Origin: Candidatus Heimdallarchaeota archaeon
Lineage (GTDB): Archaea > Asgardarchaeota > Heimdallarchaeia > JABLTI01
DNA length: 24,578 nt
Reading direction: 5' to 3'
Assembly (NCBI GenBank): GCA_019056785.1
Contig: DXJV01000046.1
Span: forward strand, 1-24,578
Shown: positions 19,466-20,185 of the stretch, one piece after another
Layout: every line of letters begins with the position of its first letter
Numbering within the stretch: position 1 is the first letter of the stretch
Position numbers and translations under genes: made by a program
The notes under the pieces: generated by a model
Database searches by the model: none
What the model was told of the DNA's origin: nothing
The model's input: only the letters and a program-made list of their open reading frames with translations

Positions 19466-20185
19466 CTAATGCATATCGTATTTCTTTGTCAGACCGTTAA
19501 TGGCACAGAACTTGAAGAAATATTGAAACAAACCAAAAAAGCCCATGGCAATTGGGAGCATCAGCAAGAATCCATAATAAGCATTAATTGTTGGGATGAA
19601 AAAGATGGTCATAGCCCCAATTATTGCTATAGCAAAAGAGATTATTCCCATAATGAGCCGTTTCTGCCGTTCTGCTTTTCCAATATTACATTGCCCAGAT
19701 TTGTAGCCAATGGCATTAAAGATGAACTTTTGCATCATACTTCTCGACTCTTTCGGGTCAAACGGTCGGTCATCTTCCACCAAATTAATCTCTTTGAGAT
19801 ACTCTCCAAACTCATAAGCAACTTTGTCGATAATATCGATGGAAGGATTCGGCGCAATTTTGAGCTGATATTTATTGAACAGCTGATTGAGATAATTTGC
19901 TGCTTTTTTCAAGTCCTCTTTCACACTCGAGAGAACTTCTGCTGATAGTTTCTCTTTCTGCCCGAAAATGAGGAGAACATCAGAAAGTTCATCCAAAGCA
20001 TAGAGCTTGTTTTCCAAGATAACATATCGCAGTTTATCGTTGCTCATCTCATTTGCAAAATGTGTTAGCGCGACAAAAAAGCCTGATTGAAGAATATAGT
20101 AATTGTCAGATAATGCTTTGTCTGGATCCTTATTATAGTAAAAGATTGGAATGCTTTCGCGTATAACTAAAATTTCTTCTAACAA
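19466..20185 (-). CDS. Longin-like domain fused to a C-terminal two-TM YgaP/DUF2892-like membrane domain
   Basis: N-terminal EILVIRESIPIFYY...LQSGFFVALTHFANEM..LRYVILENK (longin-like). C-terminal CNIGKAERQKRL-TM1-TM2-FC. TTG start after GAGG. Confidence 0.75.
   Translation of the reverse strand: MLEEILVIRESIPIFYYNKDPDKALSDNYYILQSGFFVALTHFANEMSNDKLRYVILENKLYALDELSDVLLIFGQKEKLSAEVLSSVKEDLKKAANYLNQLFNKYQLKIAPNPSIDIIDKVAYEFGEYLKEINLVEDDRPFDPKESRSMMQKFIFNAIGYKSGQCNIGKAERQKRLIMGIISFAIAIIGAMTIFFIPTINAYYGFLLMLPIAMGFFGLFQYFFKFCAINGLTKKYDMH

What the first reader, a model, noticed from the sequence alone, without database searches (positions are those of the whole stretch)
19466..20185. Longin-like domain fused to a Cys-flanked two-TM membrane hairpin
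Seen: the N-terminal domain shares the 'IPIF/LPLF...SG(F/L)xxA(L/I)' pattern with the two other longin-like domains in this window. The C-terminal module is G-Q-C-N-I-G-x-x-E-R-x-x-R, TM1, TM2, F-C, which places two Cys on the same membrane face. Established: eukaryotic longins act in trafficking (Sec22/VAMP7, TRAPP, Mon1-Ccz1, AP sigma subunits), and NxGxxxRxxR..C hairpins resemble YgaP/DUF2892. Inference: an integral-membrane longin that could recruit soluble longin partners or small GTPases, possibly under thiol/metal control. No SNARE heptad is evident.
Basis: partly seen in the sequence, partly recalled or inferred. Interest (0 to 1): 0.7.

Follow-up and report, generated by a model that had tools for sequence, protein, structure and literature searches.

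The report
Membrane-anchored longin protein with split partner
A Heimdall-group archaeon encodes a trafficking-type "longin" domain fixed in the membrane by a two-cysteine helical hairpin, whose third membrane helix comes from a 58-residue gene just downstream; this makes it a testable candidate for how these relatives of eukaryotes attach longin-based machinery to membranes.

Summary

- **N-terminal domain.** Residues 1-135 fold as a longin domain (AF2 pLDDT 83.5, topology bbabbbaa). VIA Z is 11-12 to the CPLANE, Mon1-Ccz1, BLOC-3 and TRAPP longins.
- **Paralogues.** It is homologous to the C-terminal domains of the two TPR proteins in the window, and to at least 14 further paralogues in the genome.
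- **Membrane module.** Residues 160-239 form an N-in/C-in two-TM hairpin of the YgaP/DUF2892 type (sub-threshold in Pfam). Its only two conserved Cys (C166, C227) are invariant and both lie at the cytoplasmic interface.
- **New here.** The 58-aa tail-anchored ORF directly downstream (19276-19452) follows the gene in 21 of 21 split loci. It is homologous to the third TM of widespread 120-140-aa stand-alone bacterial and archaeal relatives. Two family members keep that TM fused. The unit is therefore a split 3-TM Cys2 module carrying a longin domain.
- **Distribution.** The fusion occurs in 22 of 83 Heimdallarchaeia genomes, including MAGs labelled Hodarchaeota and Kariarchaeota. No full-length copy was found in 317 other Asgard genomes.

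Function is inferred, not shown. The most likely role is a membrane platform that presents a longin domain to partners, with the Cys pair binding a metal or sensing redox state. It is not a SNARE. This is a new domain architecture built from known folds.

The parts
19466..20185 (-). Gene for the 239-aa longin + Cys2 two-TM protein (TTG start, TAG stop)
   Evidence: ORF. 46 homologues at E<=1e-33, all full-length ones collinear. About 30 more distant full-length cluster representatives.
19781..20185 (-). Longin domain, residues 1-135 (b1 4-9, b2 12-18, a1 29-48, b3 54-57, b4 60-67, b5 70-76, a2 82-105, a3 116-132)
   Evidence: AF2 model from 45 sequences: pLDDT 83.5, pTM 0.80. VIA Z 12.1 (rmsd 3.3, 128 aligned) to CPLANE, 11.9 to Mon1-Ccz1, 11.8 to BLOC-3, 11.2 to TRAPP. 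Foldseek returns only longin and roadblock hits. Pfam Intu_longin_1 E 2.6e-3, below the cut-off.
19709..19780 (-). Acidic linker (residues 136-143) and conserved amphipathic helix (144-157/159) leading into the membrane module
   Evidence: Helix 144-157 in the models. S147, R148, M151, Q152, K153, F154, I155, F156, I159 are invariant among close homologues.
19652..19708 (-). Juxtamembrane Cys motif G-Y-x-x-G-x-C-N-I-G-x-x-E-R-x-K-R (residues 160-178); C166 codon at 19688-19690
   Evidence: Most conserved segment of the protein: majority-residue fraction 0.74. Invariant in fused and stand-alone relatives.
19508..19651 (-). TM1 (residues about 179-199), short outside loop (200-206), TM2 (207-226, with invariant Q221 and F226)
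   Evidence: Hydropathy and positive-inside count. Helices 170-196 and 202-224 at pLDDT 77-93. Pfam YgaP-like_TM E 2e-4, 21.9 bits against a cut-off of 25.3; 18 of 22 homologues hit. Atlas structure match to PF11127 clusters, TM 0.63/0.80.
19469..19507 (-). Cytoplasmic tail, residues 227-239, starting with invariant C227 (codon 19505-19507)
19276..19452 (-). 58-aa tail-anchored partner ORF (TTG start): charged N-terminus, motif K-x-D-F-R-K-A, one C-terminal TM. It is the split-off third TM of the module.
   Evidence: Present directly downstream on the same strand in 21 of 21 split loci, although no other neighbour is shared across lineages. An HMM of the small ORFs hits the C-terminal TM3 of stand-alone and fused relatives (up to 37.8 bits; shuffled and reversed controls <=5 bits). 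Co-fold gives weak support.
19461..19467 (-). Shine-Dalgarno-like AGGAGGA overlapping the TAG stop of the longin gene, 8 nt before the TTG of the small ORF
   Evidence: Read directly from the sequence.
19210..19250 (-). Stable hairpin followed by a U-run, about 25 nt after the small ORF's stop; the likely end of the two-gene transcript
   Evidence: RNA fold -17.8 kcal/mol, z -5.3, 0 of 200 shuffles as good. The bacterial-type consensus scan did not call it.

Best explanation
The locus is a two-gene operon encoding one membrane complex.

Gene 1 makes an N-in/C-in protein. Its cytoplasmic N-terminal longin domain is tied, through an acidic linker and an amphipathic helix, to a two-TM hairpin. 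The hairpin is framed by two invariant cysteines at the cytoplasmic interface. Gene 2 makes a 58-aa tail-anchored subunit that supplies the third TM helix of what is, in other prokaryotes, a single 3-TM Cys2 protein.

Shown by comparison: the fold, the topology pattern, the conservation, the operon and the split-gene relation.

Inferred: the assembled module holds a longin domain permanently at the cytoplasmic face of the cell membrane. There it serves as a docking platform for another longin or roadblock protein, or for a small GTPase. The genome has 16 further longin-like matches, including the two TPR-longin proteins in this window. The Cys pair, probably doubled by dimerisation, binds a metal or cofactor or reports redox state, so that docking could depend on the state of the membrane module.
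For: Longin fold:
- Model pLDDT 83.5, topology bbabbbaa.
- VIA Z 10-12 over 111-134 aligned residues (about 120-134 for the top-ranked hits) to solved longin domains, while roadblocks cover only residues 1-105.
- Foldseek top 50 are all longin or roadblock.
- Sub-threshold Pfam hits to Intu_longin_1 and Fuz_longin_1 in 7 and 3 of 22 homologues.
- One own-genome paralogue passes the Fuz_longin_1 cut-off.

Link to GTPase and partner biology (leads only):
- The nearest Atlas structure clusters are Asgard stand-alone longins, longin+V4R fusions and longin+Arf/Ras-type GTPase fusions.
- Own-genome matches include longin+V4R and five C-terminal matches in ORFs of about 700-800 aa that look like the window's two TPR-longin proteins but were not scanned.
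- Solved eukaryotic longin domains act as dimeric GTPase platforms (PMC10933270).

Membrane module:
- Invariant Cys motif, and positive-inside topology.
- Significant sequence matches of residues 160-238 to 80-140-aa stand-alone proteins, E 1e-7 to 1e-3 against 1.8 billion sequences.
- Both Cys are invariant in those stand-alone proteins.

Partner subunit:
- 21 of 21 split loci carry the small ORF.
- It is the only neighbour conserved across lineages.
- It is homologous to TM3.
- The TM3-fused member P0056 has no small ORF downstream.
- The SD overlaps the upstream stop.
- Co-fold: ipSAE 0.52 against a best control of 0.00. That mark was reached by 58 of 80 solved complexes and 2 of 110 mismatched pairs. 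At 0.60 or under, only 7 of those 80 reached it, and so did both mismatches that passed. The tool therefore calls it weak support. Runs agree in at least 90% of contacts, and partner pLDDT is at least 68. My own alignments were used. The pair is the two halves of a split gene, so the prior was high. No like complex is solved.

Open question it addresses: the Asgard Rab-like GTPases examined lack prenylation Cys, and the Asgard GTPase, roadblock and TRAPPC3 proteins tested showed no membrane targeting in HeLa cells (PMC10933270).
Against: - No GTPase or other candidate partner is conserved next to the gene. Only the small ORF is.
- No invariant polar surface residue was found in the longin domain. 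The nearly invariant positions are hydrophobic core.
- The strongest constraint lies on the Cys motif, TM2 and the tail, not on the longin domain. The Cys2 module also exists widely with no longin domain, so its own unknown activity may be the primary function.
- The fusion is patchy: 22 of 83 Heimdallarchaeia genomes, and absent from four single-contig genomes. It is therefore not a core part of Asgard longin or GTPase biology.
- Dimerisation, metal binding and proximity of the two Cys were not tested.
Confidence: 0.5

Rival explanations
1. The 3-TM Cys2 module is the working part. It would be a small membrane protein that binds a metal or cofactor, or handles sulfur or redox species, as a distant cousin of the YgaP transmembrane domain. 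The longin domain would then be an added regulatory or output domain that couples the module's state to the cytoplasm. On this reading the protein is a sensor or regulated device, not a passive anchor.
For: - The Cys motif, TM2 and tail are the most conserved parts. Majority-residue fractions are 0.74, 0.63 and 0.59, against 0.43 for the longin core. Mean pairwise identity is 0.41 against 0.27.
- The module occurs alone in Chloroflexota, Actinomycetota, Bacteroidota, DPANN archaea, Halobacteria and in Heimdallarchaeia family f6, with both Cys invariant.
- An ArsR-family regulator lies nearby in 8 related bacterial loci. This echoes ygaV-ygaP (PMC9774250).
Against: - No function is known for the stand-alone family. 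It matches no NCBIfam model, and Pfam hits are sub-threshold only.
- The ArsR neighbours are in closely related genomes and are not independent.
- Other bacterial neighbours are housekeeping genes.
- This reading does not exclude the platform reading. The two differ mainly in which part is primary.
Confidence: 0.3
2. The longin domain acts in cis. It binds the charged N-terminal peptide of the 58-aa subunit, or the protein's own linker helix. This would resemble the way the VAMP7 and Ykt6 longin domains fold back on their SNARE motifs, and would gate assembly of the 3-TM module rather than recruit outside partners.
For: - The small ORF has a conserved cytoplasmic segment (E-G-x-I/V ... P-E-M-I-K) ahead of its TM.
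- Longin domains are known peptide and helix binders. VAMP7 longin-peptide complexes appear among the structural hits at Z 9.5-10.3.
- The co-fold scored above its controls.
Against: - The same G-x-V/I segment is present in stand-alone 3-TM proteins that have no longin domain, so it belongs to the membrane module.
- The co-fold tool gave no contacts, so the interface is unknown.
Confidence: 0.1
3. A primitive longin-SNARE or membrane-fusion protein.
For: The order of parts (longin, helical linker, C-terminal membrane anchor) resembles Sec22 and VAMP7.
Against: - No Synaptobrevin or SNARE family hit at E<=0.1.
- After the longin fold ends (a3, 116-132) only one 14-residue helix precedes the Cys motif. 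That is too short for a SNARE motif of about 53 residues.
- The anchor is a hairpin plus a separate helix, not a single tail anchor.
Confidence: 0.03

Closest known systems
Longin domains of eukaryotic tri-longin RabGEFs and TRAPP (Mon1-Ccz1, CPLANE Intu/Fuz, BLOC-3 HPS1/HPS4, Bet5/Trs23/Trs20)
   Same: Same fold and topology. Best structural matches have Z 11-12, rmsd 2.8-3.4 over 123-134 residues. The only Pfam longin models that respond are Intu_longin_1 and Fuz_longin_1.
   Different: Sequence identity is 10-15%. It is a single longin domain rather than three. It is covalently membrane-embedded, whereas the eukaryotic complexes are peripheral. GEF activity and GTPase binding were not tested. 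Z values among longin subfamilies are tied within 1, so no subfamily can be assigned.
E. coli YgaP transmembrane domain / Pfam PF11127 (DUF2892, YgaP-like_TM)
   Same: A C-terminal two-TM hairpin preceded by N-x-G-x-x-x-R-x-x-R, used to anchor a cytoplasmic domain. Pfam E 2e-4. Atlas structural match to PF11127 clusters. NCBI labels two homologues as DUF2892.
   Different: - It falls below Pfam's cut-off (21.9 against 25.3 bits).
- A profile search finds no sequence match to any PDB chain, YgaP included.
- It carries two invariant Cys and a third TM, here on a separate gene.
- The cytoplasmic domain is a longin domain, not a rhodanese.
Stand-alone 3-TM Cys2 proteins of bacteria and archaea (unnamed; e.g. 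P0089, P0102, P0119)
   Same: Direct homologues of residues 160-239 plus the 58-aa ORF. They share the same Y-x-x-G-x-C-N-I-G, Q...F-C and D-x-R/K-K-A motifs in the same order.
   Different: They are a single polypeptide of 120-140 aa with no longin domain. Their function is unknown.
Membrane-anchored longin proteins of eukaryotes (longin SNAREs Sec22/VAMP7; non-SNARE phytolongins and SEC22A/C; recalled from general knowledge)
   Same: An N-terminal cytoplasmic longin domain tethered to a C-terminal membrane anchor.
   Different: There is no SNARE motif, and the anchor is of a different, prokaryotic origin. The resemblance is analogy of architecture, not shown homology beyond the longin fold.
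Asgard longin/roadblock expansion (Liu et al. 2020 preprint 10.1101/2020.10.19.343400; Tran et al. 2024 PMC10933270; PDB 8yqg Loki Roadblock-Longin)
   Same: It belongs to the same expanded, fusion-prone domain family. Z is 10.2 to the Loki longin structure. Paralogues are fused to TPR, V4R, wHTH and methyltransferase domains.
   Different: I found no report of this fusion to a membrane module. No paper in the library holds both 'DUF2892' and 'longin'.

Membership tests
Longin domain (fold level) | b1-b2-a1-b3-b4-b5-a2-a3 topology, with no N-terminal helix | tested here: met
   DSSP of the model: E4-9, E12-18, H29-48, E54-57, E60-67, E70-76, H82-105, H116-132. This is a predicted structure, not a solved one.
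Longin domain (fold level) | Full-domain structural similarity to solved longin domains, clearly above unrelated folds | tested here: met
   22 top VIA rows are longin domains at Z 9.9-12.1, covering residues 1-132 to 1-139. Roadblocks stop at about residue 105. Foldseek E down to 1.5e-4.
Pfam longin families (Intu_longin_1 PF19031, Fuz_longin_1 PF19036) | Score at or above Pfam's gathering cut-off | tested here: not met
   18.4 bits against 23.7 for PF19031. Best among homologues is E 5.7e-4, 20.5 bits for PF19036. A paralogue in the same genome does pass (26.5 against 26.1), and the family profile matches it at E 1.1e-4.
YgaP-like_TM / DUF2892 (PF11127) | Score at or above Pfam's gathering cut-off | tested here: not met
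   21.9 bits against 25.3. 18 of 22 homologues hit, all sub-threshold.
YgaP-like_TM / DUF2892 (PF11127) | Two-TM hairpin preceded by a basic N-x-G-x-x-x-R motif, with both ends cytoplasmic | tested here: met
   Sequence and positive-inside count. Atlas structure match to PF11127 clusters, TM 0.63/0.80 (a lead only).
3-TM Cys2 module (unnamed family defined here) | Y-x-x-G-x-C-N-I-G ... TM1 ... TM2 with Q ... F-C, then G-x-V/I ... D-x-R/K-K-A ... TM3 | tested here: met
   The first two elements are on gene 1 and the third is on the 58-aa ORF.
Longin SNARE (Sec22/VAMP7/Ykt6) | SNARE motif of about 53 residues between the longin domain and a single tail anchor | tested here: not met
   No Synaptobrevin or SNARE Pfam hit at E<=0.1. 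Only a 14-residue helix lies between the longin fold and the Cys motif.
Longin/roadblock GTPase platform (GEF or GAP) | Dimerises and binds a small GTPase | not testable with these tools
Biochemistry or a controlled co-fold screen is needed.

The most novel reading that the evidence does not exclude
In Heimdallarchaeia, including MAGs labelled Hodarchaeota, an integral-membrane longin complex is the fixed membrane receptor that brings soluble longin/roadblock-TPR proteins or Rab/Arf/Rag-like GTPases to the cell membrane. It would be a prokaryotic counterpart of anchored platforms such as Ragulator-LAMTOR1 or SR-alpha/SR-beta, built by grafting a eukaryote-type longin domain onto an old prokaryotic Cys2 membrane module, with docking gated by the metal or redox state of that module.
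Probability: 0.25. Interest if true: 0.8.

Novelty: new variant of a known kind. Interest (0 to 1): 0.55.

Why it matters
Asgard archaea encode dozens of longin and roadblock proteins and small GTPases. How any of them reach a membrane is open. The Rab-like proteins examined lack prenylation cysteines, and the tested proteins did not go to membranes (PMC10933270). A longin domain that is itself an integral membrane protein gives a concrete, clonable entry point. It is conserved as a two-gene unit in several Heimdallarchaeia lineages, the class the cited reviews treat as closest to eukaryotes. Finding what binds it would identify at least one membrane-proximal longin circuit. The split-gene relation also defines a widespread, unnamed 3-TM Cys2 protein family in bacteria and archaea.

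Tried and rejected
- **PDB sequence searches.** Profile searches with the whole family and with the membrane module gave nothing usable. The one hit was Prp31 at E 0.58.
- **NCBIfam.** No model matched the protein, the small ORF or the stand-alone relatives.
- **First full-length AF2 model.** From 22 close homologues, pLDDT was 67 and helix a1 was poor. It was replaced by a domain model from 45 sequences.
- **Gene neighbourhoods of bacterial stand-alone relatives.** Neighbours were housekeeping genes: M16 peptidase, CPSase and pyruvate kinase. An ArsR regulator appeared in 8 related loci. Two metagenome look-ups showed a two-component pair and a Usp gene. There is no consistent functional signal.
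- **Neighbours of the fused gene across lineages.** Nothing but the small ORF is shared.
- **RNA evidence.** No RNA holder was listed among public runs, so co-transcription could not be checked.
- **Supplementary tables of Liu et al.** They are not held, so the asCOG assignment is unknown.
- **Terminator scan.** The consensus scan called no terminator. The hairpin was found by folding.
- **Not tested (caps reached).** Homodimer formation, Cys-Cys proximity, and co-folds with TPR-longins or GTPases were not tested.
- **Antisense ORF.** The ORF at 19454-19945(+) overlaps the conserved gene and was treated as spurious.

Full report
**The gene**

window:19466-20185(-) is an uninterrupted 239-codon ORF with a TTG start. 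A GAGGA lies 7 nt upstream. The window belongs to a Heimdallarchaeia MAG. The best database hit is 97% identical and is named Candidatus Heimdallarchaeota. The word-indexed search found 46 homologues. Most are collinear full-length proteins of 223-245 aa at 53-87% identity; the last few are shorter fragments. An exhaustive phmmer search of 1.8 billion representatives added about 30 full-length relatives at 27-41% identity. It also found roughly 40 short proteins (60-170 aa, mostly 80-146 aa) that match only residues about 155-239, at E 1e-9 to 1e-3.

In 31 diverse full-length members the invariant positions are P13, A39, G160, Y161, G164, C166, N167, I168, G169, Q221, F226 and C227. C166 and C227 are the only Cys columns occupied in three or more sequences. 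The I-P-I-F ... S-G-F-F-x-A-L pattern is shared with the C-terminal domains of the two TPR proteins at 6138-8222(+) and 15132-17261(-). The similarity is statistically supported: hhalign probability 89% and 93%, E 2.5e-6 and 4.3e-7.

**N-terminal domain**

- A first full-length model was mediocre (pLDDT 67). Even so, it returned only longin and roadblock structures.
- A domain model of residues 1-158, built from 45 sequences, reached pLDDT 83.5 and pTM 0.80. Its element order is b-b-a-b-b-b-a-a plus one extra helix at 144-157.
- An exhaustive VIA-align search gave the following:

| Target | Z |
|---|---|
| CPLANE | 12.1 |
| Mon1-Ccz1 | 11.9 |
| BLOC-3 | 11.8 |
| TRAPP | 11.2 |
| COPI and AP small and medium subunits | 10-11 |
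| VAMP7 | 10.3 |
| Lokiarchaeal longin domain (8yqg) | 10.2 |

- Longin hits cover residues 1 to about 135. Roadblock hits stop near residue 105. Foldseek agrees.
- Pfam responds only below its cut-offs, with Intu_longin_1 and Fuz_longin_1.
- I therefore call the fold longin with high confidence but do not assign a longin subfamily. The top Z values are tied within 1.
- The nearest ESM-Atlas structure clusters are all Asgard. They are stand-alone longins, longin+V4R fusions, and longin fused to Arf/Ras-type GTPases (a lead only).
- In this genome the domain profile finds 17 matches. Scanned paralogues include longin+V4R, longin+wHTH, longin+methyltransferase and one that passes Pfam's Fuz_longin_1 cut-off. 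Besides the window's two TPR-longin proteins, five more matches lie at the C-terminus of unscanned ORFs of about 700-800 aa.
- This fits the published picture of a large, fusion-prone Asgard longin/roadblock family (10.1101/2020.10.19.343400).

**Membrane module**

- Hydropathy and the models place two helices at about 177-199 and 202-226.
- K+R averages 4.06 before TM1, 0.74 in the loop and 1.9 in the tail. This gives N-in/C-in and puts both Cys at the cytoplasmic interface.
- Pfam YgaP-like_TM scores 21.9 bits against a cut-off of 25.3, and 18 of 22 homologues respond.
- The Atlas model of this protein aligns to PF11127 clusters.
- No PDB chain matches by sequence.
- The Cys motif, TM2 and the tail are the most conserved parts of the protein.
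- In stand-alone relatives Y, G, C-N-I-G, R and F-C are likewise invariant.

**The partner ORF**

- The 58-aa ORF at 19276-19452(-) starts 13 nt after the longin gene. An AGGAGGA overlaps that gene's stop codon.
- A stable hairpin plus U-run follows it (-17.8 kcal/mol, z -5.3).
- A homologous ORF of 50-59 aa sits in the same place in 21 of 21 related loci without a fused TM3. This includes loci where the longin protein is only 26-35% identical.
- No other neighbour is shared across lineages.
- The stand-alone relatives of 120-140 aa carry a third TM preceded by G-x-V/I ... D-x-R/K-K-A. This aligns with the small ORF.
- An HMM of the small ORFs hits exactly that C-terminal segment, at up to 37.8 bits (21 proteins score 15 bits or more). 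Shuffled and reversed controls score at most 5 bits.
- Two family members (P0056, P0080) have the third TM fused, and P0056 has no small ORF downstream.
- The unit is therefore a 3-TM Cys2 module whose third helix is encoded separately.
- The co-fold scored ipSAE 0.52 against 0.00 for the best control, which the tool rates as weak support. Its counts were as follows. The mark was reached by 58 of 80 solved complexes and 2 of 110 mismatches. At 0.60 or under it was reached by only 7 of the 80, and by both passing mismatches. Runs agreed in at least 90% of contacts, and partner pLDDT was at least 68. My own alignments were used and no contacts were given. As the pair are the halves of a split gene, the prior was already high.

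**Distribution**

- With every candidate scored, the fused form is present in 22 of 83 Heimdallarchaeia genomes: family f1 9/12, f3 6/31, f5 4/12, f6 3/22. It is absent from four single-contig genomes.
- Named records include Heimdallarchaeota, Hodarchaeota and Kariarchaeota MAGs.
- No full-length match appeared in 317 genomes of other Asgard classes. In that search only 7 candidates per genome were scored.
- Family f6 also has the unfused module. In three of its genomes the unfused gene lies 5-6 kb from the fused one.

**Mechanism**

Shown by comparison: fold, topology pattern, invariant Cys pair, operon and split-gene relation.

Inferred: the complex fixes a longin domain at the inner face of the membrane as a docking site for another longin or roadblock protein or a small GTPase. 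The Cys pair confers metal or redox dependence.

The main rival reverses the emphasis. On that view the Cys2 module has its own unknown activity and the longin domain is an add-on. The higher conservation of the module, and its wide occurrence without a longin domain, favour that view to some degree. A SNARE-like role is disfavoured. There is no SNARE family hit, and only a 14-residue helix lies between the longin fold and the membrane motif.

**Novelty**

Asgard longin fusions are known as a class. I found no report of this one. I rate it a new variant of a known kind. Its interest is moderate because the architecture is clear, conserved and testable, while its function is unproven and its distribution is patchy.

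Noticed in passing
window:20355-22085 (+): A DUF5591 protein (198 aa) and a TGT-family protein (374 aa) lie divergently upstream of the longin gene. This arrangement is kept in all 8 loci from close relatives (L001-L008) but not in more distant lineages.
   Followed up: partly
window:18164-19192 (+): The GAPDH-like gene next to the operon has 58-69% identical orthologues at the same position in L004-L006. In L001-L003, L007 and L008 the slot holds a different GAPDH (about 25% identity) in the opposite orientation. This looks like a non-orthologous replacement.
   Followed up: no
G000 contigs C49, C54, C72, C32, C5, C36, C94, C44 (loci L086-L095): The genome holds 17 matches to this longin-type domain. 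Scanned fusion partners are V4R, wHTH and a methyltransferase. Five further matches lie at the C-terminus of unscanned ORFs of about 700-800 aa that resemble the window's TPR-longin proteins.
   Followed up: partly
G084:C55:74297-75004: The orthologue in one same-genus genome carries an in-frame TGA. The open frame over the membrane module is only 129 aa. This could be a pseudogene or an assembly error.
   Followed up: no
G061:C8, G062:C104, G063:C69: In three family-f6 genomes an unfused copy of the Cys2 module (142-152 aa) lies 5-6 kb from the longin-fused gene on the same contig. This hints at local duplication before or after the fusion.
   Followed up: no
L036:5709-6788 and 7 related bacterial loci: An ArsR-family HTH gene lies within about 0.15-2 kb of the stand-alone Cys2 module in 8 loci, mostly Chloroflexota. 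This is reminiscent of ygaV-ygaP, but the genomes are related and other neighbours are housekeeping genes.
   Followed up: partly
P0078 (190 aa, metagenome contig): This is a form with an N-terminal helical region of about 60 aa, the Cys2 hairpin and a fused TM3, but no longin core. It may be an intermediate architecture or a mis-called start on a short contig.
   Followed up: no
window:19454-19945 (+): A 163-aa ORF lies antisense to the longin gene. It was judged spurious because the opposite strand is conserved.
   Followed up: no
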